From IMG/VR virus record IMGVR_UViG_3300033067_001633, positions 1 through 48,583 of that record: DNA of 48,583 nucleotides; one strand, written 5' to 3'. Each line of letters begins with the position of its first letter. The first letter of the stretch is position 1. Shown piece after piece: positions 17,064-42,016 of the stretch. The notes beneath the pieces are model-generated. The model did no database searches, was not told where the DNA came from, and saw only the letters and a program-made list of their open reading frames with translations. The position numbers and the translations under genes were made by a program. Source of the DNA: a virus (taxonomy: Duplodnaviria; Caudoviricetes).

Positions 17064-18149
17064 ATGAAACCGACAAAAATCAAAAATAAAGATGGATCGT
17101 TCTCTTATAGAATCTATGTTAGCGTAACCATTGATGGTAAACAAATCAGAGAAAATAAGCGCTTTTCAACGCGGCAACTCGCTATTGATTGGGCGCAAAA
17201 ACGCCAAGCAGAAATTGAACATGAAAGCATTCATGGAAAAAAAAGTACACAGACGATTAAAAGCGTGATAACGGACTATATGGAAAAATTTTCCAGCAAT
17301 TATGGACGATCTAAAAATTATGACTTAGCCAGATTGCTGAATTATCCGATTGCGGAAATGTCAATTGATAAATTGTCCGTAAAAGCCATCATTGCCCATT
17401 GTATCGAGCGCAACAAAGAAGCGAAACCGCAAACTGTGCAAAATGACGTGATCTGGCTAAGAACTGTGCTGAGAACAATGAGCGCCGTGAATGGGTTTCA
17501 TTTTGACGGCTCGGTGTTTGATTCGGCGATGGTGGTTTTGCGGCAGGAAAAACTGGTCGCACGCTCCACAGAGCGCAAGCGACTGCCCACGTTCATCGAA
17601 ATGCTCAAGATTTCGCGTTATTACAAGCATAAACGAGGCAAAATACCTATGTATGATTTGGTTTGGTTCGCGTACTTTTCCGCGCGTCGATTATCCGAAA
17701 TTACCCGACTGGAATGGCGAGACAATAATGACGAACGCATGACCGGCATGGTGCGCGATGCGAAACACCCACGCGAAAAAACGGGTAATCATAAACGTTT
17801 TAAGTATGACAAACGCGCCTGGCGAATCGTTCAGCAACAACCTAAGATGAAATCTTTAATATTCCCTTACAACGCTCAATCGATTGGCACTAATTTTGAA
17901 CGCATGTGTAAGCTGTTAGGTATTGTCGATTTGCATTTTCATGACCTGAGACATGCCGCCACTAGTCGACTATTTAGACTGGGGTACAACATTTTAGTCA
18001 CTGTCGAGCAAAGCCACGCGCTCATCCAGGCGCTAGATCCCGATTGCGCCGTAATGGATGAGGCCAAATGGGTGCTGTACATGACCCAAGAGCGCGGCTA
18101 TGTGGTGATCAAAAAAGCGGATTTGCTGAAAAAATTGCAGGATTTGTAA
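17064..18149 (+). CDS. int: Tyrosine integrase (DusA-associated type) lacking its catalytic C-terminus; foreign tail after 17993
   Basis: KDGSFSY N-terminus, SARRLSEI, KHP, FHDLRHAATSRLF; no H...RYTH in this ORF. Confidence 0.88.
   Translation: MKPTKIKNKDGSFSYRIYVSVTIDGKQIRENKRFSTRQLAIDWAQKRQAEIEHESIHGKKSTQTIKSVITDYMEKFSSNYGRSKNYDLARLLNYPIAEMSIDKLSVKAIIAHCIERNKEAKPQTVQNDVIWLRTVLRTMSAVNGFHFDGSVFDSAMVVLRQEKLVARSTERKRLPTFIEMLKISRYYKHKRGKIPMYDLVWFAYFSARRLSEITRLEWRDNNDERMTGMVRDAKHPREKTGNHKRFKYDKRAWRIVQQQPKMKSLIFPYNAQSIGTNFERMCKLLGIVDLHFHDLRHAATSRLFRLGYNILVTVEQSHALIQALDPDCAVMDEAKWVLYMTQERGYVVIKKADLLKKLQDL
17974..17993 (+). repeat. 20-bp inverted repeat, left copy (TTAGACTGGGGTACAACATT)
   Basis: Perfect reverse complement at 41997-42016. 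Confidence 0.95.
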
Positions 18150-18153
18150 GTCA

Positions 18154-18223
18154 TGTAGGGCACGCTCAGCGTACCCTACACAGCTAATGATTAACAAAAT
18201 AGGGTATGTCATATACCCTATTT
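18154..18223. repeat. Two REP-like palindromes
   Basis: TGTAGGGCACGC-TCA-GCGTACCCTACA (18154-18180) and AAATAGGGTAT-N5-ATACCCTATTT (18197-18223). Confidence 0.6.
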
Positions 18224-18274
18224 AATTTACCCCCATTTACCCTATTTAATCCGCATTATTAACCCCTGAAAATA

Positions 18275-18300
18275 GTCTCAAACTTGACTATTTTTGAGAC
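18275..18300 (+). promoter_or_regulatory. Dyad upstream of the head operon, putative Mor-type late activator site
   Basis: GTCTCAAA-N10-TTTGAGAC just before the first head gene. Confidence 0.5.
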
Positions 18301-18323
18301 AAGAAAAGGCTCATGATTTGTCC

Positions 18324-18536
18324 ATGAGCTTTTATACCGACATGTTACAGAAAGCGCAGGCCGCTTACGAGCAAGCCTTGACGCATCGACTCACGCAATT
18401 TGGCGATAAACGGCATGAAAACCATGCCATCGAACAATTGCGCGGCGAAGTTTTGTACTGGGAAAAGCGTGTAGCAGCAGAAACTGCCGCCGCAACAGGC
18501 ACATCCTCTTATAAGCCGATCCAGGTCGTGCTATGA
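18324..18536 (+). CDS. Head-tail joining protein (gpW-like)
   Basis: Size and position overlapping the portal start (ATGA). Confidence 0.7.
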   Translation: MSFYTDMLQKAQAAYEQALTHRLTQFGDKRHENHAIEQLRGEVLYWEKRVAAETAAATGTSSYKPIQVVL

Positions 18537-20107
18537 CCGCTAACGTTGCCGCTTCCTATCAAGATGCGAAAATCGGTGCGTGGATACCGTCGCCAGGGTC
18601 CGCCGATGCCGATTTGCTGCAAGAACAGCGCATCATCTATTCCCGCGCGCGCGATTTGGTGCGCAACAATCCCATCGGCGCAGGCGCAACCCAAACGTTT
18701 GCCGACAACGTCATCGGCAGCCAGCTCCGCTTATCCTCGCAGCCGAAATACCGGCTATTAGGCTGGGAAAAGTCCCAAGCCTCCGAGTGGGCCAATCAAA
18801 CCGAAGACCAATTCGAAAGCTGGGCCAATACCACCGAATGCGATGCCGCACGTACCCAAACGCTCATGGATTTGAGTATCCAGGCGCTCAAGTCGGCCTT
18901 AGTCAATGGCGATGCCTTGGCCTTGGTGATGTGGTTGCCGCGCAAAGAGGCGCAATGGTCAACCCGTTTGCAAATGGTCGAAGCGGACCGCTTAGCTACG
19001 CCGCCGCATTTGATCAACAGCAAATACTTGCGGGGCGGGGTCGAGATCGATGATTACGGCGCACCGGTGGCGTACTGGATCAATCGCAACCATCCCGGCG
19101 ACATGTTTGGCAATATCGTCAATAATCCGCTCGATTTCGTTCGGGTACCGGCGTTTACCCCGTGGGGGCGTCGGCGCGTCATTCATTTATACGACAAAGA
19201 ACGCTCCGGACAATCGCGCGGCAAGTCCATTTTTGCAGCAGTCATGCGTGAATTCAAAGTCGCCGGTGACTATTTAGGCCATGAGCTCCACGCGGCAGCC
19301 AGCAATGCCATGATTGCCGCCTTCTTAGAGTCTGACTTGCCGTCGGAATCGGTCGCAGAATTATTCGGTACCGATACCAGCGAAGGCGGCTACTGGAAAG
19401 GCGTCTCCGATAAATTCAACCGCAAAAAGCTCGAAAGCGGCATGATGCTGACCTTGCCGGTGGGCACCAAGCTTTCAGGCTACAACCCGAACCGCCCCAA
19501 TACCGCGTTCGATGGCTTCATGGAATCGGTGATGCGTCATATCGCCGCCGGTCTGAACATGCCTTACGAGCTGCTGTTAAAAGATTTCAGCAAAACCAAT
19601 TATTCCAGCGCCCGCGCAGCCTTATTGGAAGCGTGGCGTTTTTTCCAAAGCAAGCGCGCCTGGTTAAAAAACCTTTGGCTCGATCCGATCTACGCGTGCT
19701 GGATCGAAGAAGCGGTCAATACCGATAAAATCCAAGCGCCCGATTATTACGCCAACCGTCACGCCTATCACGGCTGCCGCTGGGTATTCTCGGGCCGTGG
19801 ATGGGTCGATCCGGTCAAAGAAGCCAAAGCCGCGCAAATGCGCATGGATATGGGCCTGTCGACGCAAGAAGCCGAATGCGCCGAGCAAGGCACCGATTGG
19901 GAAGATGTCCAAGACCAACGGATCCGCGAATTGAGCCGCGCGATTAAGCACTGTCAACAAGCCGGATTGCCGGAAAGCGCTGCCTACATCATTGCCGGTT
20001 TCGACCTGTCCGGAAACCCCTCGGATATTTCCGCCTATTACAACGAGCCCGATAACGCGCCGGGCAATGACGCAACTCAACAGGAACAAGCCAATGCCGA
20101 TGCGTAA
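18533..20107 (+). CDS. Portal protein, lambda family
   Basis: RARDLVRNN, NYSSARAALLE, GWVDPVKE. Confidence 0.96.
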   Translation: MTANVAASYQDAKIGAWIPSPGSADADLLQEQRIIYSRARDLVRNNPIGAGATQTFADNVIGSQLRLSSQPKYRLLGWEKSQASEWANQTEDQFESWANTTECDAARTQTLMDLSIQALKSALVNGDALALVMWLPRKEAQWSTRLQMVEADRLATPPHLINSKYLRGGVEIDDYGAPVAYWINRNHPGDMFGNIVNNPLDFVRVPAFTPWGRRRVIHLYDKERSGQSRGKSIFAAVMREFKVAGDYLGHELHAAASNAMIAAFLESDLPSESVAELFGTDTSEGGYWKGVSDKFNRKKLESGMMLTLPVGTKLSGYNPNRPNTAFDGFMESVMRHIAAGLNMPYELLLKDFSKTNYSSARAALLEAWRFFQSKRAWLKNLWLDPIYACWIEEAVNTDKIQAPDYYANRHAYHGCRWVFSGRGWVDPVKEAKAAQMRMDMGLSTQEAECAEQGTDWEDVQDQRIRELSRAIKHCQQAGLPESAAYIIAGFDLSGNPSDISAYYNEPDNAPGNDATQQEQANADA

Positions 20108-21353
20108 CCCCGCCGTATTTGCCCGCATTTTCAATACGCCGCTGATGATTCAATCGATGAAACTCGATGCCATCATTGCTGGATTAGGGCCGCGCTTTGG
20201 CTTGGAGTTACCCAAGACTGACATGGTCTTGACCGCATCCGGCGAATGGAAACGCCCCGGTTATCAAGTCATCGGCACTATCGCCGTTATCGACATTTTC
20301 GGCGTATTAGCGCATCGCATGTCCTTTGACGGCAATACCAGCGAATATATTTTAGGCTATGACGTGATTGCCAAACGCCTGGACGCGGCATTAAACGATG
20401 CAGCAGTGACTGGCATTTTATTACAGATCGATTCGCCCGGCGGCGAAGTGGCGGGCTGTTTCGAACTGGCGCAACTGATTCATGATGCGCAAGCGCAAAA
20501 GCCTATCCATTGCGTCATCAGTAGCTTGGCGGCCTCGGCAGCCTATTTACTGGCTTCGGCGTGTGCCGTCATCGGCATTTCCGATACTGGCATGGCGGGG
20601 TCAATCGGCGTGGTCATGCGCCATGTCGATGTCTCGCAAATGGCCGAAAAAGAGGGCATCAAAGTCACGCACATTTTCGCCGGCGCGCAAAAGATCGACG
20701 GCAATCAATTCGAGCCGTTGAGCAAAGCCGTCAAAGCCAAATTTCAAGACAACATCGACGCGCTGTACGAGCAATTTATCAGCGCCGTCAGCAGTAATCG
20801 CGGGCTGAGTGCTCCGGCTGTTCGGGGTCAGGAAGCGGGCATTTATACCGGAACAGCAGCAATACAAGCAGGCTTGGCAGATCGTATCGCCACGCCGGAT
20901 CAAATGCTCGCAGCAATGCAGCAACAATTTAAATCCATACCAAGAGGATCAACCATGGCAGCAACGACTGAAGCCGTATCCGAAAACGATACCGCGATCA
21001 TCAAAGCGAAGGCCGAAGCGTTTGAAGCCGGAAAGCGCGAAGGCGCCTCGGCAGAACGCCAACGCATGAGCGCAATTTTAAATCACGACACCGCAATCGG
21101 CAGAGAGGCGCAGGCGAAAGCCTTGGCGCTGGATACCGATTTAGCGCCGGATGTCGCCGCGAAAGTATTGGCAGCAAGCCCAATCAGCGCCGCATCGGCA
21201 CAACCGGTCTCGCAATTTGGCGAGCATATGACGAAGCTGGGGAATCCAACCGTCGGCGCGGATCAAAGCGACGCTGATGTGCAAGCGCAGGCCGATAATT
21301 ATGGCTGGGACAAAGCCTTTGCCAAAGTAACGCCCATTAGAGGTAACAAATAA
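20094..21353 (+). CDS. S49 head maturation protease/scaffold (gpC-like)
   Basis: IDSPGGEV, AASAAY, GSIGV; C-terminal scaffold-like region. Confidence 0.93.
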   Translation: MPMRNPAVFARIFNTPLMIQSMKLDAIIAGLGPRFGLELPKTDMVLTASGEWKRPGYQVIGTIAVIDIFGVLAHRMSFDGNTSEYILGYDVIAKRLDAALNDAAVTGILLQIDSPGGEVAGCFELAQLIHDAQAQKPIHCVISSLAASAAYLLASACAVIGISDTGMAGSIGVVMRHVDVSQMAEKEGIKVTHIFAGAQKIDGNQFEPLSKAVKAKFQDNIDALYEQFISAVSSNRGLSAPAVRGQEAGIYTGTAAIQAGLADRIATPDQMLAAMQQQFKSIPRGSTMAATTEAVSENDTAIIKAKAEAFEAGKREGASAERQRMSAILNHDTAIGREAQAKALALDTDLAPDVAAKVLAASPISAASAQPVSQFGEHMTKLGNPTVGADQSDADVQAQADNYGWDKAFAKVTPIRGNK

Positions 21354-21994
21354 TGACTCTTTTAACAGAAGGCAAAAACCCAGGAGAGTTCATTGTCTCC
21401 GAACAGGAATCGCTATTAAGCCGTGATGTGATTATCGTCAAATCCGGTCAAAATCTGGTAGCCGGTGCGGTACTTGGCATGTTGATTACCGCCACTGCGA
21501 CAGCAGCAGCGGGCACTAATACCGGTAACGGTGTAATGGGCGCGATTACGTGCAGTGCAGGTGTAATAGAAGGTAAGTATGTTCTCAAGATCACCAAAGT
21601 AGCGGCCAATGCCGGGGATTTTGAATTAGTCGATCCTGAAGGCGATGTCGTGGGTATTGGCACAGTAGGCGCACCCTTTAATTTAAATGGCTTGGCGTTC
21701 ACCTTGGCCGATGGTGCTGTGGATTTCGCGCTGAACGACACTTTTACCATTACCGTGGTCGAATCTTCGCGTAAATATGTCGCGCATGCGCCATCCGCTA
21801 CAGACGGCAGCCAACACGCCGTCGCGGTTTTATTTGCGGGGGTCGATGCGACAGCGGCAGATAAAACCGGCGTAGCCATTGCCCGTGTGGCGGAAGTCAA
21901 CGGCAATGAAATCACCTGGGCGAGCGGTATCAGTGCCAACGATAAAGCGTTGGGCATTAAATCGTTAGCTAAACGCAACATTATCGTTCGCTAA
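21353..21994 (+). CDS. Head decoration protein
   Basis: SRD...GQNLVAGAVLG, DGSQ.AVAVL; between protease and capsid. Confidence 0.85.
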   Translation: MTLLTEGKNPGEFIVSEQESLLSRDVIIVKSGQNLVAGAVLGMLITATATAAAGTNTGNGVMGAITCSAGVIEGKYVLKITKVAANAGDFELVDPEGDVVGIGTVGAPFNLNGLAFTLADGAVDFALNDTFTITVVESSRKYVAHAPSATDGSQHAVAVLFAGVDATAADKTGVAIARVAEVNGNEITWASGISANDKALGIKSLAKRNIIVR

Positions 21995-22008
21995 GGAGCA
22001 ACAAACAC

Positions 22009-23031
22009 ATGGCTACATTAGATATTTTTAAACAGAACGCGTTTTCGCTGATTAGTCTATTACAAGCTTTCGAAAGATTGCCGTATGTGCCGCAGCGAAT
22101 GAACGAACTTAACGTGTTTACGCCCAATCCGGTACGCACCGAAACGGTTGCCATCGAAAATAGGGATGGCGTGTTAAGTTTAATTAAAACGTCTAATCGC
22201 GGAGCGCCGCTAGAGCAGCGCACCAATGAAAAGCGCAATATTCGTGATTTTAGAACGCTGCGCATCGCTAAAGCGGATCGAATTACCGCAGCCGAATTAG
22301 CGTTTATTCGGGCGTTTGGATCAGAATCCGAATTAATGCAAGTGCAGGCTGAAATTGCCCGGCGGCTATCGGGGCCGGTTGGGTTATCGAATGCTGTTGA
22401 ATTGACTTTAGAATATATGCGTCTAGGTGCAATTCAAGGCATTGTCTACGATGCGGATGGTAGCGTCATTCGAGATTGGTTTGATGAATTCGACATCACG
22501 CCAGCGGCTGAAATCAACTTCGATCTTGGTAACGCGGCTTCAAAAATCCGCACCAAATGCAATCAAGTGGTTCGTGCCATGATGCGTGCAGCAAAGGGCG
22601 CATGGACACCCGCTACGCGTGTATATTGCTTATGTGGAGATCAATTCTGGGATGCATTGACTAGCAATGATGAAGTGCGTTCGACCTATTTAAACACTAT
22701 GGAAGCGCCTAAATTACGTGATGGCAATGTCTTTGAAACCTTCAATTTTGGCGGAATCACCTTTGAGAACTATCGTGGCACCGACGATGGTACGACTGTA
22801 GGTATTGCAACTGATAAAGCCAAGTTTTTCCCGGTTAATGCGCCAGGAGCCTTCTTAGAAGTCTTTAGCCCGGGTGAAACATTCGCACATATTGGCCAAT
22901 TAGGCCAGCGTATTTATCCGATGATTATTCCTGACGATGAGCGCCAAATGTATGCGGATATCGAAGCCTACAGCTATCCATTGCATGTCTGTACGCGTCC
23001 GGAAATGCTGCAAAGCGGCAGAGCGGCGTAA
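22009..23031 (+). CDS. Major capsid protein (gpE family)
   Basis: EYMRLGAIQG, FGGITFENY, SYPLHVCTRP. Confidence 0.93.
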   Translation: MATLDIFKQNAFSLISLLQAFERLPYVPQRMNELNVFTPNPVRTETVAIENRDGVLSLIKTSNRGAPLEQRTNEKRNIRDFRTLRIAKADRITAAELAFIRAFGSESELMQVQAEIARRLSGPVGLSNAVELTLEYMRLGAIQGIVYDADGSVIRDWFDEFDITPAAEINFDLGNAASKIRTKCNQVVRAMMRAAKGAWTPATRVYCLCGDQFWDALTSNDEVRSTYLNTMEAPKLRDGNVFETFNFGGITFENYRGTDDGTTVGIATDKAKFFPVNAPGAFLEVFSPGETFAHIGQLGQRIYPMIIPDDERQMYADIEAYSYPLHVCTRPEMLQSGRAA

Positions 23032-23066
23032 CGTAACAGCTTTCCACGATAACAAGCGGCTATTGC

Positions 23067-23378
23067 ATGCAAAATGACCCATTTAGCTACTCGCTGGTCA
23101 CGTATTTTTGGGTATTTAGTCTATCGATATGGGGCGGGATAGTGAATTATTTACGCAAAGTCAACACCGGAGCCATAGCGCGTTACAGTCTAGTTGAAGT
23201 TATAGGCGAGCTGGTCATTAGCGGGTTCTGCGGGGTGATGACATTTTATCTGTGCGAAGCCAGTGACTTTGAGGGCACATTGACTGCCGCGCTCGTTGGG
23301 ATTTCGGGACATATGGGTTCGCGCGGCATCTTTATGATCGAAAATTATATTCAACGAAAATTCGATAATGCGTCATGA
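23067..23378 (+). CDS. Phage holin family protein
   Basis: WGGIVNY...GELVISGFCG...GISGHMG, three TM segments. Confidence 0.82.
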   Translation: MQNDPFSYSLVTYFWVFSLSIWGGIVNYLRKVNTGAIARYSLVEVIGELVISGFCGVMTFYLCEASDFEGTLTAALVGISGHMGSRGIFMIENYIQRKFDNAS

Positions 23379-23394
23379 ATATTGAGGTTTAGCG

Positions 23395-24147
23395 ATGTTC
23401 AATTTGCAACTCGATGCTAATAATGTCTTCTCTGCGCTGTCCCATATGCCAGAACAGATCCCATTTGCAGCCGCATTGGCGTTAACCAGAACTGCCCAAA
23501 AGGTAAAGCGGGATTTGCAGACGGCCATGCCCGTGGCATTTAAAAACCCGACACCCTATACCTTGCGCGGGGTATCACTGGATCCGGCAACTAAGCGCAA
23601 ATTAGAGGCGATAGTTTGGCTTAAAGGCGATGGCATGTATGAGCCAAGCAATGAATCCTTGCCACAAGCCAAATACTTGCGTCCTGGAATATTTGGCGGG
23701 CCACGGCATGCCAAATCGAATGAGCTGGATATGCGCCGTGCGGGCTTTCTTTCCGGCGATATGTTTACCGCTCCGGCATATGAGTTCAAAGGCAAGCTGG
23801 ATAAATACGGCAATATTCCCGGGCCGACAATTTTGCAAATGATTACGAGTCTGGGCATACAACAAGAGCGTCCGGGGTGGCGGCAAAACAGCACTCGGGA
23901 GTCGCGCGCCCGAAATTCCAGGAGACGTTTGGATTATTTTGTCATGCGCAGAAATAATAAAGATGTGGGCATTTTTAGGCGTAAACCCGACTCAGATGAT
24001 GCGGAAACTATGTTGTGGTTTATTAAAGCGCCGGTATACAAAAAACGCTTTGATTTTTTTGGTATTGCGAATAAAGCCGTTCATGAGAATTTAATGCCGG
24101 AAATACAAAGCGCGATGCAAGTCGCACTCGCAACGGCAAGAGTCTAG
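23395..24147 (+). CDS. Neck/minor tail protein (gpZ-like)
   Basis: QIPFAAALALTRTA...PTPYT...YKKRFDF motif. Confidence 0.7.
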   Translation: MFNLQLDANNVFSALSHMPEQIPFAAALALTRTAQKVKRDLQTAMPVAFKNPTPYTLRGVSLDPATKRKLEAIVWLKGDGMYEPSNESLPQAKYLRPGIFGGPRHAKSNELDMRRAGFLSGDMFTAPAYEFKGKLDKYGNIPGPTILQMITSLGIQQERPGWRQNSTRESRARNSRRRLDYFVMRRNNKDVGIFRRKPDSDDAETMLWFIKAPVYKKRFDFFGIANKAVHENLMPEIQSAMQVALATARV

Positions 24148-24150
24148 TTC

Positions 24151-24441
24151 ATGGCGTGGATTGATTTAGAAACCAATGTCAATGCCGAAGTTATGAGCAT
24201 TTTCGCAGAGAATATAATTTTGCATTTATTCGAAGGCGACACAGCGACCAATGGCATTTATACCGAAGCGGTGACCGAGGACATGGGGATTTTGCGCACC
24301 GATTATTACGTCGATCTGTTGCCGGACGATGCTGCATTGCTCAAAAAAGGGGATCAATTAACCATTCGCTCAATGCTATTCGAAATGGTTAAATCCACGC
24401 CGAATAACGGTCTTGAGCATCTGGAGTTACGCCGCTTATGA
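24151..24441 (+). CDS. Head-tail joining protein (gpFII-like)
   Basis: Size, position, KGDQLTI motif. Confidence 0.6.
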   Translation: MAWIDLETNVNAEVMSIFAENIILHLFEGDTATNGIYTEAVTEDMGILRTDYYVDLLPDDAALLKKGDQLTIRSMLFEMVKSTPNNGLEHLELRRL

Positions 24442-24878
24442 GCACCTTGCGCCAATTGGTGAAAGATCGGATTAGCTTATCTGACCTGGGTTATAACCTG
24501 GCGATGGTCGGTGGTGCGGCGAATTTGGCGGAAGTGCTGGAAGGGTCGGCTCGCGGGCAGGGTTTACCAGCAGTATTTGTGTGGTGCCAGGAACTGAAAG
24601 CCAAAGAAAACACTTTGATTAATGCCCATAGTCAGGAACTGATGGAGACCTTGGTCGTGGCGATCATGGTCAACAACAATGTAGGCGAGCAACAAGGCGA
24701 TAGTTCCGATGCTGCCGAGGCGATCAGGGTCGGGATTAGAGCGTTGATTGCTGGCTGGATTCCGAACGAATCGATTAATGCCTTCGATTATATCGGTGGG
24801 AAATTAGTAACGATGGAAAACGGCATCTACTATTGGATCGATCACTATGTCACTTCGTATTATTTTAGAACTGTATAG
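24438..24878 (+). CDS. Tail terminator protein
   Basis: PAVFV, ALIAGWIP; precedes the tail tube. Confidence 0.72.
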   Translation: MSTLRQLVKDRISLSDLGYNLAMVGGAANLAEVLEGSARGQGLPAVFVWCQELKAKENTLINAHSQELMETLVVAIMVNNNVGEQQGDSSDAAEAIRVGIRALIAGWIPNESINAFDYIGGKLVTMENGIYYWIDHYVTSYYFRTV

Positions 24879-24886
24879 GTACGGCA

Positions 24887-25106: not shown

Positions 25107-25185
25107 TTTAAACAACCGGCGCGCAGCTTGTAACTCGTAAGACGCACAAGCATATAGGCAACCCTGCTCACACAGAGGACTACCT

Positions 25186-33900: not shown

Positions 33901-36900
33901 AAAACTCAATGACAGTATTCTGGCTGCGGTGACTGGCATTTTTCAGAGGGGCGATTTAGCAACGCCGACTTTACCGGCCAACACGTCATCAATGTTCGTT
34001 AACACCCGCAATGAGATATCGCAAAATCGCTTGACAGGAAAAGGGAATACCTTGGGTGCCATAAGTGATGGCTGGCAATTTGATTTATCGCAATTTATAG
34101 AGACCAAGCGCACCAAAGATTTATTATTTGGACACATGGTAAAGACGTCTACCTCTCAAAATGCAGTTAGCGACCAGACTAATCGTGATGTGACTGCCAT
34201 CTATAAGAATTCAGGAGATATGTTAATCGAGGCCGGTAAGATTTTCGGCATGGATGTTAAAGATGTCGTCAATGCGATTCGCATTCCCGACCTGGACATT
34301 GACATCAAAGACATGACCGGCGAAGAAGCGATTAAGGCGTTTAATGCGTATATATCCACATCTATCGATCAAATGGCCGGTCAAGTATTCCCTGAGTTGG
34401 CGCAATACCAAAAAATCGGCGAAGGACTTGGCGAAACGGTCGGTCGGGTTGCGGCGGATGTCGGTATCGTTAAATCAGTGTTTGATAATTTGCATGTGAC
34501 ATTGCCGACAACCGCGGTAGGCTTGATAGCGGTATCAGAAGCGCTAGTGTTGGCCGCAGATGGCACGGATAAACTGACGACCAATCTGAATAATTTTTAT
34601 AATAAGTTTTACAGCGATACCGAACAGGCACTCGATAATTTTCATTTTTTAACTCAGAATTTTGCGCGTAAAGGCATCGAACTGCCGACCGATAGACTTG
34701 GTTATCGTGATGCTGCGCGTAACGCATTGGCCAAAGCGGGTACGGATTCCGATATTTTGGCAGCGGCAAAAACCCGACTTGATGAGTTGACTAAGGCCGC
34801 GTTTGCGCCATTTGAAAAAAATCTGGAAATCCGCAAAAACAATGCGGAACGCTACGGCGGCGAAGACGCTAGGCTGTACAAAATAGCGCAAGATGAAGCG
34901 AAGGCTGCGGTAAAAGCGGCGACAAAATCACAGGCCGATTATGTAGCTGAATTGCAAAAAAGTAGCAATGCGAGCGCTGAAAATGCGAATTTGCTGCTTG
35001 AGCAATCGGACAATGCTGATGCTTATTACTCAGCGATCGAAAAAGGCCAAAAAGCTCTCGATCCAAGGCCTTTTAGAACATCTGTCAATGCGTTCCAGCA
35101 TGAATTCTCTAAAGTATCCAACCAGGCCATCCCCACCAGCATCGAGGGTTATCGCAACCTGATCAATAGCATCGATACCAGTACCGAAGCAGGTCGCCGC
35201 ATGCATGACGGACTGGTTATGTTGGCACCGGATTTTGTTGATTTAGACGATAGCCTGTCCGGACTTAAGGATGAATTAAGTCAAGTATATGTGGGGGGCA
35301 ATGATTTTACGATGACCATAATTAGCATGGCTGATGCCTTTGGCAGTGCGGATAAAGCAGCACAAGTGTTCAAGGATTCTATTAAATTAGTTTATTCAGG
35401 CAACGATGTTAAAACCATGTCGATTACAGCTGCAAATACGCGTTTTTCCAATAATGCAAAAGCAGCTGGTCTGGAAGGTTTACGCGTTCAAGATGCGCAA
35501 ACTGGATTGAAATGGATAACAGACAGCGAAATAAAAGGCACGATAAACTTAGGTGATAAAGTAAAAATTGGCAATGGGACGTATTCTTGGGCAGAAGTAC
35601 AAACATGGCTCGTCGATAATCTGAACCCTATTTATAACGCTGAAAACATGAGTACCGGCGATAATTCCGCATCCAAAGCCGCCGACGACGCCGCCAAAAA
35701 AGCCGCCGACGACGCCGCCAAAAAAGCCGCCGACAATGCCAAAACCCTGCTGGATTTAAACAACGACATTGCCAAGCAGCTCAAAAGCATTGGCCTGAGC
35801 GACATCAAAAAAAGCATCCTGGACATTAATACCGGCATTGATGACATGATTACCAAAGCGCGTGAAGCAGGTGGCACGCTGCCGGCTATCGAAAGTCTGC
35901 GCACTGCGAAACTCACCGAATTAGCCACGCAAACCTTTAAAGACCCGCTTAAACAAGTGAGCCGAATTGGTAACTCAGACATCCAAAATCAAGTTTTAGA
36001 TATTGCTGAATCAAACAAGACCTTGCGCGATTCTGCCAAAGCCTTGGCTGACGCGTCACCAGCACTGAAGAAATTCTTCGGTACCACGATGGAAGGCATT
36101 AATGCCCTGGAAAAATCCCAATTGCAAAACGTGTTCAAAGACGTGGCGCAGGAATTTTTAGACATCGGAAAAATCGATTATCAAAAGAATTTGGACGGCA
36201 TTAATCAGTGGGCAGATGACATGATTAAAGTCGCGCCGTCGATTGCCAAAGCCTACGACATCAGCACCGATGACGCTATTAAAGGCATTCAGGCGATAAG
36301 CAACGCGCGTATTGAGGCGCTCAATAAAGAGCGCATCGAGATCATGAAGACCTCTGAAGTTAGCTATCGCAAGGCGCTTATTCAATCCTCAAGTGCCGTT
36401 TCCGGCAATTTGGAACTACAACTGATCGACATCAAAGACCAGTTTACCAACACTATTTTGAACGTGATTGAAAAAGGCGGCGATCTGAACGACGTTGCAG
36501 TGCAAATCCGCTATGCGATTGAAACCGGCACGCTAGCGTATCAAGCCGCCTCGAAAGAAATCCAAAAAGCAGCAGATGAAATCTTTAAAACGCTGAAAAC
36601 CAAAGGCAACGAATTAGCCGATCAAATTTACAAGCTGAAAAATCCGAATGATGAAGCCGGGCTGTTTCAAATCCAGTACCAGCGCGAACTTTCTAAGTAC
36701 ATGCAGGGCAACTATCAAGATCAAATCGAGGCGATTAACACGGTGCAAAGTTTAGCGATGGCGCGTTATGACTCCGAGCTGACTGCAATCAATAAAATTT
36801 ACGATGCCAGTAAGGCGATTAATAAATACTTGAACGATCTGAAGCTCAATGAGCGCTTATCACTGAATACGAATAAGCAAATCGTTGACGAATCCAAAGC

Positions 36901-37855
36901 GCAGTTTGCGACTCAACTTGCAGCGGCGAAAGCGGGCGATGCCACAGCCTTGTCCGAGATTACCACTTACGCTGACAAATATCTGAATAGCTCACGCGAC
37001 TTTTATGGCGTCAGTCAGGATTATGCGGCGATTCGCGACAGTGTCACAGCGTCGTTAGCGGCGTTGGGTGTAACGGATAAAGTTACTTTTGATCAGCAAA
37101 CGGCAACGGCAACGACTAAAACTGTCGCGTTATTGCAGGATCTGCAATGGGCAGTTAATAACACAACCCAACTTCAAACCAATCAACTGCATAACGATCT
37201 GGAGGCGCTGGGCTCAGTCACTGCGCAAATCGGCAAGGCGTTTACTGACAGTATGTATGACCTGGCGACAAAATATCAGATCAGTAATCAGCAACTGCTT
37301 GATGCAGTTAACCAGGTTTATGACGCGACATCTAAAACGACCGCGTCCAGCGGTGTGCCCTCAACACCGAGTCCTGCATCGAGCGGTGATGTCATGTCCA
37401 CGTTTTACAGCAAAGTGGATTCGGGCGATTGGTTGGGTGCGGCGCGTTATGCGTTTAGCGTGGGCGGCACGAAGCATGATATAGCCACGGCTATTGCTGC
37501 GCGTGGGGGTAGTTATGGCGAAACGATGAATTGGTTGGTGATGCAGGGCTTTGCGACTGGCGGCAATTATCCGGGCGGTTTGGCGCTGGTGGGTGAGCAA
37601 GGGCCGGAAATTATCAATTTCAGAAATCCTGGCCAAGTCTATACTGCGCCGCAAACCCGTGAGCTGATGCGAGGCGATAATGGTGAATTGATTGCTGCAA
37701 TTAAAGCTAATGCCAAGGTCATTGCCGACGAAATCATCCGTTTAACAAAGGTGAATGTCGAAGGACAAAGCGAACTGATTGCTATTAATGAAGAGCAGCG
37801 AGAAGAAATCGCCCGTTTACGCAAAGAAATGGCGCGGGCGGCGCTCAAAGCATGA
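30971..37855 (+). CDS. Tape measure protein with lytic transglycosylase domain
   Basis: QLSQALSSGVLRGDEFNSIME; AQRESG/GLMQI/AAYNGG; C-terminal FATGG...VGEQGPE. Confidence 0.95.
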   Translation: MADLQLTLRIRANADGTAQIINGVGNSINRVSDQANQATSASARMAAALQRVGHYGAVAFAGSWFSGKAKEAILLADQMTLLDSRIKIASSSLQNYQNASASLTAIALSTGSSLESNVTLFSRLNKAVEGMGATYQTTLGITKTLAEGLKISGASAGEANSVMIQLSQALSSGVLRGDEFNSIMENGSRIVDALSTATGKSRGELRKMAEEGELSAKLVVDALKSQAASIHNDFGKIPLTIGAAMENVNTRFAKFIEHENNAVGLTSNLAKGLDEASQHIGLLAGALGGLTTLAVAIGGANLAMVAFNATTRLNPIIMAASVVAAGIGMIAGRIQDLNAAWENKITASSTLDEQNKKIHDQIQLLAELKTHHGLYYDTKIAKETNALKIMIAERNQMMDLAANAEKEAVETTEKRLKSEEKLNQILEGKYKNIITQAAEAYKVDQNLMLAIAQRESGSGKNMGRSSTGDWGLMQINENTAPQISNALKVSVNKILTDPETNAKASAWYVSWLQQQFSKANVTPTAELFAAAYNGGFGNLEKANFNLVNLKKTVREYAMDVADTQQALTKMSGTDWFKTQAEGAKQASDASKKYALEIQKLNDAAITGAQLYNQTIARLDEQHQSGLSDAAYAKGIEDANSALMQFVDSLDATKMHAADIKNEYEDWIKIFELAKSYQENALTNTERQAQEINKLVAVYNSVANTGNGLMSVDVFSTNLEKIQGKYAPSNLKGLEDYNTLIQKITSSTGQLGATNNAVFDSALGGINTLVSAFNNMSAAIDANTQSQLDLNAAKAGALADIRTSKDDEFGKAIKEKKALYDFDMASKKLADEKNQNELSGVRQIIGATAQMFDKKSNAAKALHGIEMGIAAAELTMKAQSIASNIAATTSGVVAGAAKFFAQSGWAAFAGIAAMIGVIGALGGTTSSPSMPSIDTKTQGTVLGDKTKSSNTAENLGKIMEDIHASEYLALLNINESIKKLNDSILAAVTGIFQRGDLATPTLPANTSSMFVNTRNEISQNRLTGKGNTLGAISDGWQFDLSQFIETKRTKDLLFGHMVKTSTSQNAVSDQTNRDVTAIYKNSGDMLIEAGKIFGMDVKDVVNAIRIPDLDIDIKDMTGEEAIKAFNAYISTSIDQMAGQVFPELAQYQKIGEGLGETVGRVAADVGIVKSVFDNLHVTLPTTAVGLIAVSEALVLAADGTDKLTTNLNNFYNKFYSDTEQALDNFHFLTQNFARKGIELPTDRLGYRDAARNALAKAGTDSDILAAAKTRLDELTKAAFAPFEKNLEIRKNNAERYGGEDARLYKIAQDEAKAAVKAATKSQADYVAELQKSSNASAENANLLLEQSDNADAYYSAIEKGQKALDPRPFRTSVNAFQHEFSKVSNQAIPTSIEGYRNLINSIDTSTEAGRRMHDGLVMLAPDFVDLDDSLSGLKDELSQVYVGGNDFTMTIISMADAFGSADKAAQVFKDSIKLVYSGNDVKTMSITAANTRFSNNAKAAGLEGLRVQDAQTGLKWITDSEIKGTINLGDKVKIGNGTYSWAEVQTWLVDNLNPIYNAENMSTGDNSASKAADDAAKKAADDAAKKAADNAKTLLDLNNDIAKQLKSIGLSDIKKSILDINTGIDDMITKAREAGGTLPAIESLRTAKLTELATQTFKDPLKQVSRIGNSDIQNQVLDIAESNKTLRDSAKALADASPALKKFFGTTMEGINALEKSQLQNVFKDVAQEFLDIGKIDYQKNLDGINQWADDMIKVAPSIAKAYDISTDDAIKGIQAISNARIEALNKERIEIMKTSEVSYRKALIQSSSAVSGNLELQLIDIKDQFTNTILNVIEKGGDLNDVAVQIRYAIETGTLAYQAASKEIQKAADEIFKTLKTKGNELADQIYKLKNPNDEAGLFQIQYQRELSKYMQGNYQDQIEAINTVQSLAMARYDSELTAINKIYDASKAINKYLNDLKLNERLSLNTNKQIVDESKAQFATQLAAAKAGDATALSEITTYADKYLNSSRDFYGVSQDYAAIRDSVTASLAALGVTDKVTFDQQTATATTKTVALLQDLQWAVNNTTQLQTNQLHNDLEALGSVTAQIGKAFTDSMYDLATKYQISNQQLLDAVNQVYDATSKTTASSGVPSTPSPASSGDVMSTFYSKVDSGDWLGAARYAFSVGGTKHDIATAIAARGGSYGETMNWLVMQGFATGGNYPGGLALVGEQGPEIINFRNPGQVYTAPQTRELMRGDNGELIAAIKANAKVIADEIIRLTKVNVEGQSELIAINEEQREEIARLRKEMARAALKA
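35675..35734 (+). repeat. 24-bp tandem repeat, 2.5 copies (KAADDAAK)
   Basis: AAAGCCGCCGACGACGCCGCCAAA repeated in frame in the TMP. Confidence 0.9.
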
Positions 37856-39390
37856 AGGCGCTGTTAATTGAAATAACCGGTTACGATCCGGTTGCAGCGA
37901 TGGTTAAAACCCTCTATTTCAGCACGGCGCGGATGAATCCGTTTCCGCCGACCGATACCGACCGCCCGAACATTTATTATAAAGCCCTGGTTAAAGAGGT
38001 CGGTCCGGTACCGCGATTTTTATATGGTTCCGGGCGGACTTATGGTCGATCATCAAATGAGGGCGGTTATTTGCTGATCGATAATTCCGATAATAGTCAG
38101 GATTATCTGATTGACTGGGGCTTTGATGGTCGCTCGATCAAATACTACCGCGGCACCGTTGGCCAAGCGTTTAATATTTTTGTGCCTGAGCTCTCCGGCA
38201 CACTGGAGCAGCCAGAATTTACCTTTTCAAAATCGCAGCCGTCTCAGATCAAATTCATCATTCGCGATAAGTGGGCGCTGTTTAATAAGCCTATTTCAAC
38301 TGCGACCTATGCCGGTACCAATTCTGGATCGACCGGCAATGAGGGGACGGCGGATGATCTGAAAGGCAAAGGCAAGCCGTTTTGCATAGGGGCCGCATTT
38401 AACGTAACAGCAGTGACAGTCAATGCGCCCGGCTTGCGGTTTCAGTTGCACGATGGTCCCATTAATGACGCTCCGGCTTGTTATATCGGCGGGGTTGCAC
38501 AAACTAAAGTCACTGCACCTCCAGGCGCGGCACAATATTCAATCGATACGTCGACAGGGATTGCAACGCTTGGCTCTTCGCCTGGCGGTGATGAAGTGAC
38601 CTTTGATGTACAGGGAGCCAAGTTTTCCGGCACTTATGTTAATAAGTGTGCGGATCTGGTTAGCAAGATAGCGCAAACGTATGGCGGTATTACCGTGAGC
38701 GAAGTCAACAGTACCGCGGTGACGGCACTGAATGCGTTAAATGCAGCGCCGGTAGAATTGTATTATCCCGATGCGAGTACGGTCACTATTTCCGACGCTT
38801 TGGATGCTTTGCTCAATAGCATTGGTGCCTATGCCTTTTTCGATAAGCTCGGCGTGCTGCAAATGGGCCGATTATCCGATCCAAGTGGGATGACCTCGAT
38901 TAAAACGCTATCAGAACGCGACTTTGCCGAGTTTGAGATGATTCAAGCCAATGACGAAGATAAAGGCGTTCCGGTTTTCAAGGTGACCGTTAATCACACC
39001 GTTAATTACACCAAACAAACTAAAGTAGCCGGTTCGGTTTCTGAAGCCCGAAAAACCTGGCTGGGCCTTGAAAAACGCAGCGAATCTGCGACCGATGCCA
39101 GCGTTAAAACCGCTCACCTATTATCACCCGAACTCTCCCGAGATACGCATTTAACCAGTGCCAGCGATGCGGCAACCGAAGCCAGTCGCGTCTTGGCTTT
39201 GCGCAAGATTCGGCATGGTTTTTATAAAGCCGTTGTCGATTATGAGGCCAATGCAGACTTATATTTAGCGGATTGCATAACCGTTCTGCAGCCGCGTTTG
39301 CTAATGGCAGCAGGGCGAAAAATGGTCATCACCGGCATGATTCCGCACTCGCCTGAAGATAACCAACTGACTTTGGAGCTGTGGGGCTGA
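37852..39390 (+). CDS. Tail tip/hub protein
   Basis: Post-TMP position; YAGT...EGTADDLKGKGKP motif. Confidence 0.75.
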   Translation: MKALLIEITGYDPVAAMVKTLYFSTARMNPFPPTDTDRPNIYYKALVKEVGPVPRFLYGSGRTYGRSSNEGGYLLIDNSDNSQDYLIDWGFDGRSIKYYRGTVGQAFNIFVPELSGTLEQPEFTFSKSQPSQIKFIIRDKWALFNKPISTATYAGTNSGSTGNEGTADDLKGKGKPFCIGAAFNVTAVTVNAPGLRFQLHDGPINDAPACYIGGVAQTKVTAPPGAAQYSIDTSTGIATLGSSPGGDEVTFDVQGAKFSGTYVNKCADLVSKIAQTYGGITVSEVNSTAVTALNALNAAPVELYYPDASTVTISDALDALLNSIGAYAFFDKLGVLQMGRLSDPSGMTSIKTLSERDFAEFEMIQANDEDKGVPVFKVTVNHTVNYTKQTKVAGSVSEARKTWLGLEKRSESATDASVKTAHLLSPELSRDTHLTSASDAATEASRVLALRKIRHGFYKAVVDYEANADLYLADCITVLQPRLLMAAGRKMVITGMIPHSPEDNQLTLELWG

Positions 39391-40241
39391 TGGCTAATTT
39401 AAAGTTGCTTTGGAAAAATATTGGCGATACAGCAGCGCTATCAGGTGGCAATTGGACCCTGCCAATTACTAAAATCCAGAACGAAGATCTTTACGATGTC
39501 GCGCGTAGCAATGGCTTATCGACAACCAATAGCCGTTTTACCATTGATTTGGGTACGGATTACGCGCTATTCCAGGCAATTGCGCTGGTTAATCTCAATG
39601 TGTCTGTTTACGCACAAATTAGAGTGCAATGTAGCAACGACAACACGTTTGCAGTGATTGACTATGATACCGGCTATGTCGATTTTTGCCCGCCGCTTTA
39701 TTATACGGGCGAGCTGGATTGGCGGTCGGGAAATTGGTGGTGGGGTCGCAATTCAGCGGCAGATTTACAAGGTTATCTACGTAATTATTTTGTCGATTTG
39801 GGATTTCGTGAAAATCGCTATGTGCGCATTATCATCAACGATCCTACTAATAGCAGTGGGTATATTGATGTCGGAAGGCTGTTGATCGGCTCGTTACTGA
39901 CTTATACCTGGAATTACAACTGGGGCAGCAAACTGAAATTTAACGATCTGTCGATTAAGTCGCGAGGTTTAGGCGGTCGGGTATTTAAAGATCGCCGTGC
40001 CAAATACCGTTCAGTCCAGTTTCAACTTGATTGGTTGACAGACTCTGAAGCATATACCCAGGCATTCGAGATTGAGCGCTATTGCGGAACCACTGAAGAT
40101 ATCTTTGTAGTGCCGGACTTGGGCGATCAAAAGAATTTATTCAGGCGTTCATTCTTGGGAACGCTGTCCGAATTGAACGGTATCGATAAATTGCGGGTAG
40201 GCTTTCACGGCACCGCTTACAAAATAGAGGAAACACTATGA
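39390..40241 (+). CDS. Tail (distal tail-like) protein
   Basis: RYVRIIINDPTN...YIDVGRL motif; TGATG coupling. Confidence 0.72.
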   Translation: MANLKLLWKNIGDTAALSGGNWTLPITKIQNEDLYDVARSNGLSTTNSRFTIDLGTDYALFQAIALVNLNVSVYAQIRVQCSNDNTFAVIDYDTGYVDFCPPLYYTGELDWRSGNWWWGRNSAADLQGYLRNYFVDLGFRENRYVRIIINDPTNSSGYIDVGRLLIGSLLTYTWNYNWGSKLKFNDLSIKSRGLGGRVFKDRRAKYRSVQFQLDWLTDSEAYTQAFEIERYCGTTEDIFVVPDLGDQKNLFRRSFLGTLSELNGIDKLRVGFHGTAYKIEETL

Positions 40242-41485
40242 CGCAGTACGCAACCATCAACGGTCATCTCTATTCCGATGCCGATACGCCAACTGTCGCG
40301 GATGAGCGGAATTTGGGGGGCTATGGTAATCGAAATAATTTTTTAGCGTTAATGCAGGATCTGGCAGAGGTATCTGCTAATACCCAAGCATGGACAGCCC
40401 AAGCGCAAGCGGCCGCCGGTGCGGGTGGCGGGACGATTTTTCCGGTTGTGACTGCGGCGGATGCTGGTAAATCCTTGATCCTGAATGCCGCTGGTACGGC
40501 ATATTTAGCGGATGGAGCGGCAAAAGGCTATCGCAACAAATTGCTAAATGGTGATTTTCAAGTTTGGCAGAGGGGCACGAGTTTCACCGATCCAACTGGT
40601 ATTGCAAACATGTATTCGGCAGACCGTTGGGCATCATTTAGAGGTGCATGGACCGCTGGTATTACAACAACGCAACAAAATGTACAAACTAACAGCAGTA
40701 GTATAAGAGTACAGCGCAACAATACTAATGCCTCAACTGCTGTAATGCAGCTCAATCAATCATTAGAGACTATTGATGTTAAAAAACTTGCTGGTAAAAC
40801 AGTTTCATTACAATTTAAAGCGCTCAAGGGTGCTAACTTTTCAGCGGCATCTAGCGTACTAACAGCACAAATAATTTATGGAACTGGTACAGATGGAAAT
40901 TTAGGCAGCGGTTTTACTGGGCAAGCCGTAGCCGGAACGCTTGCAGCTACGCTGACGACAACAAGCACACAATTTTCATTAACAGCAGCTATCCCCTCTA
41001 ATGCTACGCAACTTGCTGTTCAATTTAGTTATACACCTGTTAGCTCTGCATTGGCTGCCGATTATTTCGAAGTAACTGACGTACAGCTCGAAGAAAGCCC
41101 AGTCGCTACGCCATTTGAAAGACGATCTTACGGTTTAGAGCTGTCATTCTGTCAGCGTTATTTTGTGCGGCTGGTTGATAAAACGGGTAATCATTCGATC
41201 GGTAATGGTGTCGCAATATCTGCTACTAGTATGCAGTTGCAAAGGTTTTTGGGCGTAGAAATGCGCATTGCGCCTGCTTTAACATTATCAGGCGCAGCAA
41301 ATTTTATTTGTATCAATTCGACAGGTGGAACGGCTGGAGCGGCGACAGCTATTACACTCGGTTTAACAAAATCTAATGTCGTGCGCTTTGATGTATCCGT
41401 TGCATCCGGATTAGTCGCTGGCAATGCCGCAAGCTGTCAATCGCAAAACACCTCGGCAACACTCGATTTAAACGCGGAGCTTTAA
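40238..41485 (+). CDS. Tail fibre/receptor-binding protein
   Basis: RNKLLNGDFQVWQRG, ADRW, VQLE...ATPFERR...CQRYF, LNAEL. Confidence 0.85.
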   Translation: MTQYATINGHLYSDADTPTVADERNLGGYGNRNNFLALMQDLAEVSANTQAWTAQAQAAAGAGGGTIFPVVTAADAGKSLILNAAGTAYLADGAAKGYRNKLLNGDFQVWQRGTSFTDPTGIANMYSADRWASFRGAWTAGITTTQQNVQTNSSSIRVQRNNTNASTAVMQLNQSLETIDVKKLAGKTVSLQFKALKGANFSAASSVLTAQIIYGTGTDGNLGSGFTGQAVAGTLAATLTTTSTQFSLTAAIPSNATQLAVQFSYTPVSSALAADYFEVTDVQLEESPVATPFERRSYGLELSFCQRYFVRLVDKTGNHSIGNGVAISATSMQLQRFLGVEMRIAPALTLSGAANFICINSTGGTAGAATAITLGLTKSNVVRFDVSVASGLVAGNAASCQSQNTSATLDLNAEL

Positions 41486-41486
41486 T

Positions 41487-41858
41487 ATGTATCAGTTAAG
41501 TCATGCTCAAAATATCGTCATTAATACGCAGGACGGGTCAAGTTTTGATGTCACCAGCGGCCATCCATTCGCTGTTGAATACTTAAAATGGCTGGAGGCT
41601 GGCAATTCGCCCATGCAGGCTGATGCCATGCCGACTTTACCTATTCGAGTCAGCGCGGCACAGTTTCACATGGCACTGATTCAATTAAATTTATTTAATC
41701 AAGTACAAACCGAAACAGCACAAAATCAACTGATGCAGGTATTTTTTGAAAGATCGCCGTATTTTGTATCGGATGATGCTAAGATCATATCGGTAGCTAA
41801 TGCGCTAGGGTTGCAAAGTCAGATCGGCGCGGTTTTTGAGTTGGCGGAGTCTTTGTAG
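41487..41858 (+). CDS. Tail fibre assembly chaperone
   Basis: EYLKWLEAGNSP motif after the fibre gene. Confidence 0.75.
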   Translation: MYQLSHAQNIVINTQDGSSFDVTSGHPFAVEYLKWLEAGNSPMQADAMPTLPIRVSAAQFHMALIQLNLFNQVQTETAQNQLMQVFFERSPYFVSDDAKIISVANALGLQSQIGAVFELAESL

Positions 41859-41868
41859 TTCATAGTTC

Positions 41869-41907
41869 ATAGGATGTGCTGAACAGAGTGAAGCGCATCG
41901 TTCGCGA
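41869..41907 (+). repeat. REP-like hairpin
   Basis: ATAGGATGTGCT...AGCGCATC, degenerate GTAG-type REP. Confidence 0.5.
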
Positions 41908-41912
41908 CTGTT

Positions 41913-42016
41913 TTAATCAATATCTTCCGGTTTCAAATGCGTATAGCGTGCCAGCGTTTTCCAATCATCATGCAAAGTAAATTGTTGTACTTGTTCAATG
42001 TTGTACCCCAGTCTAA
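41913..42016 (-). pseudogene. Detached catalytic C-terminus of the integrase
   Basis: RLGYNIEQVQQFTLHDDWKTLARYTHLKPEDID*; continues exactly from RLGYNI of the 17064 ORF. Confidence 0.92.
41997..42016 (-). repeat. 20-bp inverted repeat, right copy
   Basis: AATGTTGTACCCCAGTCTAA is the reverse complement of 17974-17993. Confidence 0.95.

What the first reader, a model, noticed from the sequence alone, without database searches (positions are those of the whole stretch)
17974..42016. 24-kb structural module inverted between 20-bp repeats that split the integrase from its catalytic tyrosine
Seen: TTAGACTGGGGTACAACATT at 17974-17993 (inside int) and its perfect reverse complement at 41997-42016. 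Currently int reads ...HDLRH...RLGYNI into an unrelated tail, while EQVQQFTLHDDWKTLARYTHLKPEDID* sits on the minus strand at 41996-41913. Flipping 17994-41996 gives a complete 337-aa integrase and makes head-tail genes co-directional with terS-terL-mor, the canonical order. Known: the second His and the Tyr nucleophile are essential. Inference: a genome-scale inversion toggling integrase on/off (lysogeny-competent versus lytic-only), or a one-off rearrangement. A misassembly/MDA chimera is a serious alternative given other artefacts in this contig.
Basis: partly seen in the sequence, partly recalled or inferred. Interest (0 to 1): 0.9.

Follow-up and report, generated by a model that had tools for sequence, protein, structure and literature searches.

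The report
One-off inversion breaks a phage integrase
In one sample's copy of a bacterial virus, a 24-kb block of structural genes is flipped and the integration enzyme is cut in two, but close relatives in five other samples keep that enzyme gene joined at this point and the flip also cut a second, and likely a third, unrelated gene, so it is likely a one-off accident (possibly an amplification artefact) rather than an on/off switch.

Summary
Observation confirmed: the 20-bp inverted repeat is there, and flipping 17994-41996 gives a 337-aa integrase and canonical gene order. The toggle reading is not supported.

1. The enzyme is a dusA-associated integrase. Its attP-like site lies upstream of int and is intact; the 20-mer is not att-like.
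2. The second 20-mer looks like int sequence duplicated by the event. It cuts an HNH-like gene (33 of 33 homologues run further), and the tail fused to int is the C-terminal domain of an antirepressor-type protein. Flipping back repairs neither.
3. Five of 6 runs laid show int joined across the 20-mer. One run, near-identical and probably the source, shows only the split form, at both junctions. None shows both (contigs only, rare forms can be missed).

Best reading (0.68): a one-off, non-reciprocal inversion with a 20-bp duplication at one break and a deletion at the other, fixed in one lineage predicted unable to integrate. Amplification chimera remains possible (0.22); assembler misjoin is unlikely. 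A near-identical record has int broken another way. The scan's earlier notes held nothing similar.

The parts
16571..16837 (+). Excisionase-like gene (AlpA/PrtN-type)
   Evidence: phrog_1300 excisionase E 7.5e-22; PF11112
16908..16934 (-). attP-like site: dusA 5' fragment FSVAPMLDW followed three codons later by a stop, i.e. the unintegrated state; lies upstream of int, outside the inversion
   Evidence: 6 of 6 genome loci have the dusA reading frame at this position and phage locus L001 has the same short fragment; PMC4482086 section 15
17064..17993 (+). int 5' part (310 codons) of a dusA-associated tyrosine integrase, up to HDLRH...RLGYNI
17974..17993 (+). 20-mer copy A, native int sequence
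   Evidence: runs X1, X2, X5 continue from it into the int 3' end; G001 has one copy with one mismatch, in int
17994..18149 (+). 3' fragment (51 codons) of an antirepressor-type gene, now fused to int; its 5' part is missing
   Evidence: 7 aligned homologues, all with residues upstream of the match; KilA-N, Rha or weak Bro-N N-terminal domains in three
17994..41996 (.). Inverted 24,003-bp segment: antirepressor fragment, gpW, portal, protease, capsid, tail genes, int 3' end
   Evidence: canonical orientation in relatives
41913..41996 (-). int 3' piece (27 codons) with the second His and the Tyr nucleophile
41997..42016 (-). 20-mer copy B, inferred to be an int-derived duplication made by the rearrangement
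   Evidence: supplies the stop codon that truncates the HNH-like gene
42013..42237 (-). HNH-like gene truncated after QWQT, at the start of the 20-mer
   Evidence: 9 of 9 protein homologues run 11-20 aa further; 24 of 24 viral loci run at least 11 aa further
42017..45743 (-). Accessory cassette between mor and gpW (87-aa ORF, PAPS-reductase/DUF3440 gene, 140-aa ORF, ParB-like gene, 177-aa ORF, 75-aa ORF, HNH-like gene)
   Evidence: other strains carry different DNA in front of gpW (loose ends at 18261)
45689..48467 (-). mor, terL, terS
48568..48583 (+). Conserved 16-bp motif at the right end of the window, also at 184-199; likely the cos/terminus site
   Evidence: one copy in each of 120 viral loci; 4 end exactly at its last base and 1 begins at its first

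Best explanation
The window is likely a one-off rearranged derivative of a temperate, dusA-integrating phage, in which a single non-reciprocal inversion likely duplicated 20 bp of int at one break and deleted DNA at the other, leaving an integrase predicted to be inactive. Shown: the split int, the intact attP-like site upstream, the HNH-like gene truncated at junction B, the antirepressor-type 3' fragment at junction A, int joined across the 20-mer in relatives, and both junctions in run X19. Inferred: the parent cassette carried a whole HNH-like gene and a whole antirepressor-type gene before gpW. Most likely the replicating strand switched template twice (out of int at the end of the 20-mer, and back after copying 24 kb in reverse to its start); a staggered break with fill-in and end joining gives the same product. 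The repeat is the scar of the event, not its substrate. With the His and Tyr gone, this lineage would be unable to integrate by itself and would persist lytically or with a helper integrase.
For: Junction B truncates the HNH-like gene at the 20-mer: 9 of 9 and 24 of 24 homologues continue, and no phase of the 17994+ sequence restores the family's end. The tail at junction A is a C-terminal domain with upstream sequence in 7 of 7 aligned homologues and 155 and 132 residues upstream in 2 of 2 viral loci. In relatives a complete HNH gene follows mor (L174) and a Bro-N antirepressor is the last gene before gpW (G001). int is joined across the 20-mer in 5 of 6 runs laid, from 5 studies, and in G001. 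In X19 single contigs with no differences span junction A (17313-19800, depth 6.8) and junction B (41300-43700, depth 7.35), in line with neighbouring contigs (5.6, 6.3). The two int-side breaks lie 20 bp apart, which fits one concerted event. Inverted duplications at breakpoints, often at only one break, are a described signature (PMC1885836, passages; described in Drosophila).
Against: X19 is near-identical and may be the source, so it is not independent biological support, and its library type is not on record. Only contigs could be laid, and contigs drop rare variants. The parent cassette was not found, so the deletion size and junction microhomology are inferred; short stand-alone forms of the domain exist (65 and 70 aa), so the deletion may be small. 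The G001 antirepressor matches the domain profile only weakly (8.9 bits) and not in a pairwise test (1688 of 2000 shuffles score as well). The contig start has another odd junction (1-55 repeats 1587-1641).
Confidence: 0.68

Rival explanations
1. In-vitro chimera: whole-genome amplification or library ligation from very few templates made both junctions, and they became the only form sequenced.
For: Found in one run only. Amplification chimeras are mostly inversions with a deletion, and those joining segments more than 10 kb apart often lack complementarity (PMC1855051, passages), as the inferred 1-2 shared bases here. Another odd junction sits at the contig start.
Against: It needs two long-range junctions whose int-side breaks fall 20 bp apart and that together give a complete genome. 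No parent join is listed among the X19 records at either locus (3 records, 2; rare forms can be dropped). Depth of four X19 contigs is even (5.6-7.35). In PMC1855051, 337 of 406 inverted chimeras join segments under 10 kb apart.
Confidence: 0.22
2. Programmed switch: the 20-bp repeats are recombination sites that flip the 24-kb module and turn the integrase on and off.
For: The repeat is exact and unlikely by chance (0 of 400), and flipping restores int precisely. The nearest characterised relative of these integrases is the shufflon invertase Rci (PMC4482086).
Against: The 20-mer scores no better against the att core than 41% (site A) and 73% (site B) of 953 background windows and is not palindromic (2 of 20). 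The att-like site is elsewhere and intact. No second copy was seen: 0 exact matches in viral contigs, one copy within 3 mismatches among all loci fetched by then. Neither orientation repairs the HNH-like or antirepressor-type gene. No run shows both states. In the off state the only site-specific recombinase found among the 66 ORFs scanned is itself broken.
Confidence: 0.03
3. Two-step history: the 20-mer was first captured into the cassette, replacing the HNH 3' end and the antirepressor 5' part, and homologous recombination between the two copies later inverted the segment, so rare back-flips could occur.
For: Gives the same final sequence, and the two copies are identical.
Against: Needs two events, and no intermediate (intact int plus a cassette copy of the 20-mer) was seen in 6 runs or in fetched loci. 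Twenty bp is short for RecA-type recombination (recalled). No single-strand annealing protein was found among the 66 ORFs scanned.
Confidence: 0.04
4. Assembler misjoin through a natural 20-bp repeat.
For: The contig start carries an exact 55-bp self-repeat, typical of a graph path at k=55 (the k-mer reading is my inference).
Against: Logan's contigs of X19 cross both junctions with no differences. A misjoin would leave the parent HNH and antirepressor genes whole after flipping back, which it does not.
Confidence: 0.03

Closest known systems
dusA-associated integrases (DAI) of prophages and genomic islands (PMC4482086)
   Same: Tyrosine recombinase with a dusA 5' fragment upstream on the opposite strand; 6 of 6 genome homologues (51-57% identical) sit beside a dusA reading frame.
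   Different: Here the gene is split by an inversion. The passages read describe no internal inversion site; the att site is the dusA fragment.
Archaeal suicidal integrases (SSV1, pTN3, pT26-2; PMC7253208)
   Same: An integrase gene cut into N and C parts with a shared sequence at both cuts; pTN3 Int also promotes inversions.
   Different: There attP lies inside int and splitting is the normal result of integration. Here the att-like site is outside int, the 20-mer is not att-like, and the partner site is a broken gene in the same genome.
Inversions with breakpoint duplications from staggered breaks (PMC1885836)
   Same: Inverted duplication of formerly unique sequence at the breakpoints, which also gives the direction of the change.
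   Different: Described in Drosophila chromosomes. Here it is 20 bp in a phage, with a deletion at the second break.
Rci shufflon and Gin/Cin-type invertible segments (Rci: PMC4482086; Gin/Cin recalled)
   Same: DNA inversion between short inverted repeats; Rci is the closest characterised relative of DAIs.
   Different: Those flip short segments between functional states by an intact enzyme outside the segment, and both orientations coexist. None of this is seen here.
Multiple displacement amplification chimeras (PMC1855051)
   Same: Inverted joins with deletions and little complementarity at long range.
   Different: Usually single, under 10 kb apart and alongside the true sequence. Here two matched junctions 24 kb apart are the only form listed.

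Membership tests
dusA-associated integrase (DAI) | Tyrosine recombinase catalytic residues (RHRH tetrad and Tyr) | tested here: met
   HDLRH is in the 5' part; the second His and Tyr are in the 27-aa piece and present in 8 of 8 homologues. Met only when the two pieces are read together.
dusA-associated integrase (DAI) | Element supplies a replacement dusA 5' end next to int, and homologues are integrated at dusA | tested here: met
   FSVAPMLDW at 16934-16908; dusA frame divergent to int in 6 of 6 genome loci
dusA-associated integrase (DAI) | Phylogenetic placement in the DAI clade | not tested
   No tree was built
Suicidal (SSV-type) integrase | attP lies inside the integrase gene | tested here: not met
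   The att-like site is upstream of int and the 20-mer does not resemble it
Programmed invertible segment (shufflon/invertase type) | Both orientations coexist in the population | tested here: inconclusive
   0 of 6 runs show both; 5 show int joined, 1 the split form. Contigs drop rare variants, so absence is not proven.
Programmed invertible segment (shufflon/invertase type) | Reciprocal, conservative exchange between pre-existing sites | tested here: not met
   Flipping back leaves the HNH-like gene truncated and the antirepressor-type gene without its 5' part
Programmed invertible segment (shufflon/invertase type) | Both sites conserved in relatives | tested here: not met
   0 exact matches in viral contigs; a single copy, in int, among fetched loci; different DNA before gpW in X1, X2, X5. 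No other cassette-bearing strain was found for a direct test.
Programmed invertible segment (shufflon/invertase type) | Recombinase-catalysed inversion at the sites | not testable with these tools
   Needs a reporter assay
Amplification chimera | Amplified library; junctions on few or duplicate reads beside the true sequence | not testable with these tools
   X19 is held as contigs only and its library is not on record

The most novel reading that the evidence does not exclude
The accident created a working, if crude, reversible switch: the new 20-bp inverted repeat lets the 24-kb module flip back at low frequency and restore the integrase, in a widespread phage population that repeatedly throws off integrase-dead variants (a second, independent int lesion is seen in G001). 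Lysogeny-competent and lytic-only forms of one genome would then interconvert by a genome-scale inversion.
Probability: 0.06. Interest if true: 0.7.

Novelty: new member of a known kind. Interest (0 to 1): 0.2.

Why it matters
As most likely read, it is a clear snapshot of a temperate phage losing its integrase by an illegitimate inversion. It is also a caution for sequence-only scans: a perfect inverted repeat at inversion ends can be the scar rather than the site. The more useful lead is population-level: this dusA-integrating phage, whose integrase relatives lie mostly in Methylococcaceae genomes, occurs in several sludge and freshwater runs, and a second independent int lesion exists in G001. 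If the back-flip were shown, it would be a lifestyle switch by genome-scale inversion; my three phage-inversion paper searches (listings only) showed none by title or start of abstract.

Tried and rejected
20-mer as attP or pseudo-att: a 13-of-17 gapped likeness to the att core looked suggestive, but 41% of background windows score as well; rejected.

A real small gene starting MLQAICNGK-RLGYNI at site B, with a GGAGG before it: this is an alternative frame of the conserved HNH motif; rejected.

Looking for the parent cassette: no near relative of the 51-aa tail in viral contigs or in two word-indexed protein searches. The profile scan gave 2 loci, neither with a gpW, portal or terminase hit within the flank. 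The profile matched 1 of 5 related records, not over the C-terminal domain. P0013 was dropped from the 8 hits as a low-complexity repeat.

Lack of cover over 42029-43700 in X20, X12 and almost all of X1, and over most of 17994-18260 in X2 and X5, is not counted as evidence. X1 has one 173-bp piece at 18082-18254 (depth 3.8). Only 6 of the 24 listed runs were laid; the rest are no evidence.

The promoter scan of 17900-18560 found no sigma-70 site, so expression of the flipped late genes is undecided. PADLOC gave only partial DndC/BrxP matches for the PAPS-reductase gene and nothing for the other 4 proteins. Earlier scan notes: none for this genome, two irrelevant elsewhere.
Full report
OBSERVATION. 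The 20-mer is at 17974-17993 and its exact reverse complement at 41997-42016. It is the longest exact inverted repeat in the window. As assembled, int (17037/17064-18149) runs from HDLRH...RLGYNI into a 51-aa foreign tail. An in-silico flip of 17994-41996 gives a 337-aa integrase from ATG 17064. The His and Tyr in the displaced 27-aa piece occur in 8 of 8 homologues; the fused tail has a His one place earlier than the native one but no Tyr in register. The flip also makes the head-tail genes co-directional with terL, as in all 13 of 20 terL loci and all 4 of 8 portal loci that hold both genes. An inverted repeat this long arose in 0 of 400 order-2 simulations and in 11 of 300 order-5 simulations, which likely overfit.

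THE PHAGE AND ITS ATT SITE. The record is a 48.6-kb temperate phage with primase, helicase, SSB, cI, excisionase, int, lambda-type head genes, tail genes, mor, terL and terS. Upstream of int, on the minus strand at 16934-16908, lies a dusA 5' fragment, FSVAPMLDW, followed shortly by a stop. All 6 genome homologues found (51-57% identical; five Methylococcaceae-type records and one unclassified proteobacterium) have a dusA frame at that position, and the phage homologue L001 has the same short fragment. This is the layout of dusA-associated integrases, whose elements supply the dusA 5' end (PMC4482086: passages and section 15 read; logo figure and supplements not seen). So the att-like site is outside int and in the unintegrated state. 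The 20-mer is not att-like: its best gapped score against the att core is reached by 41% (site A) and 73% (site B) of 953 background windows, and it is not palindromic.

BOTH JUNCTIONS CUT OTHER GENES. At junction B an HNH-like gene (42237-42013) stops at QWQT, with the stop codon inside the 20-mer. All 9 protein homologues run 11-20 residues further with a conserved K-x-K-x-x-x-E end, and 24 of 24 viral loci run at least 11 further. No phase of the sequence after 17993 supplies that end. At junction A the tail fused to int has 8 hits among 1.84 billion representatives; 7 align (one low-complexity hit dropped) over a W-x-x-YM-x-x-E-x-G motif. It is a C-terminal domain, preceded by KilA-N, Rha or weak Bro-N domains in three of them. 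In 2 of 2 viral loci 155 and 132 residues of open frame precede it. Two homologues are only 65 and 70 aa, so the missing part may be short. In five of the seven homologues the residues before the matching position are R-Y or R-W, and none shows the N-I of the 20-mer. Relatives show that both gene types belong in this interval: a complete HNH gene follows mor in L174, and a 347-aa Bro-N gene is the last before gpW in G001. That gene matches the domain profile only weakly (8.9 bits) and not pairwise. The event is therefore not a reciprocal exchange: int sequence is duplicated over 20 bp at one break, and the HNH 3' end plus the antirepressor 5' part are lost at the other. Shared bases at the joins are inferred to be one at B and one or two at A (parent not seen).

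READ-LEVEL EVIDENCE. Twenty of 24 listed runs hold part of 13500-23000; I laid 6, from 5 studies, all as Logan contigs. In X1, X2 and X5 the contigs leave the window at 17993 and continue into the int 3' end, and different DNA precedes gpW at 18261. In X20, X1 and X12 the contigs leave at 42016 and continue into the int 5' part; in X20 this is a 28-kb contig at depth 28. So int is joined across the 20-mer in 5 of 6 runs. In X19 (0.97 of words, no differences, possibly the source) one contig spans junction A (depth 6.8) and one spans junction B (depth 7.35), and none of its 3 + 2 laid records shows the parent join. No run shows both forms, though contigs drop rare variants. This makes an assembler misjoin unlikely but cannot exclude a chimera made before sequencing, since the library type is not on record.

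MECHANISM. Best reading (0.68): one concerted illegitimate event in a cassette-bearing strain, most likely two template switches during replication, or equivalently a staggered break filled in and end-joined. That the two int-side breaks lie 20 bp apart argues for one event. Inverted duplications of unique sequence at inversion ends, often at one break only, are described as products of staggered breaks (PMC1885836, passages). The product is predicted to be integration-defective. This hints that the DNA sequenced was matured, linear genome, which is weak support for propagation. Whether the flipped late genes are expressed is untested. Rivals: amplification or library chimera (0.22), for which the single-sample occurrence, the deletion and the odd contig start speak, and against which the matched pair of 24-kb junctions and even depth speak (PMC1855051, passages); two-step capture then inversion (0.04); programmed toggle (0.03); assembler misjoin (0.03).

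COMPARISON WITH KNOWN SYSTEMS. It resembles archaeal suicidal integrases in outcome (int split into N and C parts; PMC7253208, passages) but fails their defining test, attP inside int. It resembles shufflon-type inversion only in having inverted repeats; the tests for reciprocity and conserved sites were not met, and coexistence of orientations was inconclusive. The integrase meets the two DAI features I tested; no tree was built. Three paper searches on phage integrase inversion (listings and starts of abstracts only) showed no described lifestyle switch of this kind; this is not proof that none is in print.

A SIDE RESULT. G001 is 97.5-99.8% identical to the window over four pieces, yet 16775-17854 (excisionase 3' end, the att-like site and 264 codons of int) is replaced by 373 bp of other DNA, leaving the last 73 int codons fused to an unrelated 84-codon start. 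A low-depth contig in X1 rejoins at the same base, 17855 (only 27 letters on the short side). Integrase-dead variants may therefore recur in this phage population, on a count of two.

VERDICT. A real sequence feature, most likely an accident fixed in one lineage, not a switch. Interest 0.2; new member of a known kind. The boldest reading not excluded, an accidental but working back-flip that restores int, has probability about 0.06.

Noticed in passing
window 1-199: Bases 1-55 exactly repeat 1587-1641 (inside primase). Bases 56-183 are unique and end like a cos left flank before a second copy of the 16-bp terminus motif (184-199). It may be a 1.6-kb circle or chimera, or another phage's end joined at cos.
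   Followed up: partly
window 48568-48583 and 184-199: The 16-bp motif is conserved once per locus in 120 viral loci; 4 end exactly at its last base and 1 begins at its first, suggesting a shared cos/terminus of a broad phage group.
   Followed up: partly
L182 (G001:C1:24500-28543) 2772-3571: A near-identical phage has a different int lesion: excisionase 3' end, att-like site and int 5' part replaced by 373 bp of foreign DNA; int 3' end fused to an unrelated ORF start.
   Followed up: partly
window 16951 to 17855: A low-depth contig in run X1 skips 903 bases of int and rejoins at 17855, the same base as the G001 lesion (table 5).
   Followed up: no
window 17973-17977 and 17993-17997: TTTAG occurs at both ends of 20-mer copy A with a 20-base period; it may record microhomology with the lost antirepressor sequence, or be chance.
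   Followed up: no
window 18301-18350: A dense cluster of differences from X1, X2 and X5 in the gpW 5' end (13 in 50 bases) suggests the cassette came in by recombination reaching into gpW.
   Followed up: no
window 42299-45366: The cassette holds a PAPS-reductase/DUF3440 gene and a ParB-like gene (an IbrA/IbrB-like pair, name recalled) downstream of terL-mor.
   Followed up: no
window 18153-18178 and 18199-18219: Two short inverted repeats lie between the antirepressor fragment and gpW, a possible terminator and a possible regulator site.
   Followed up: no
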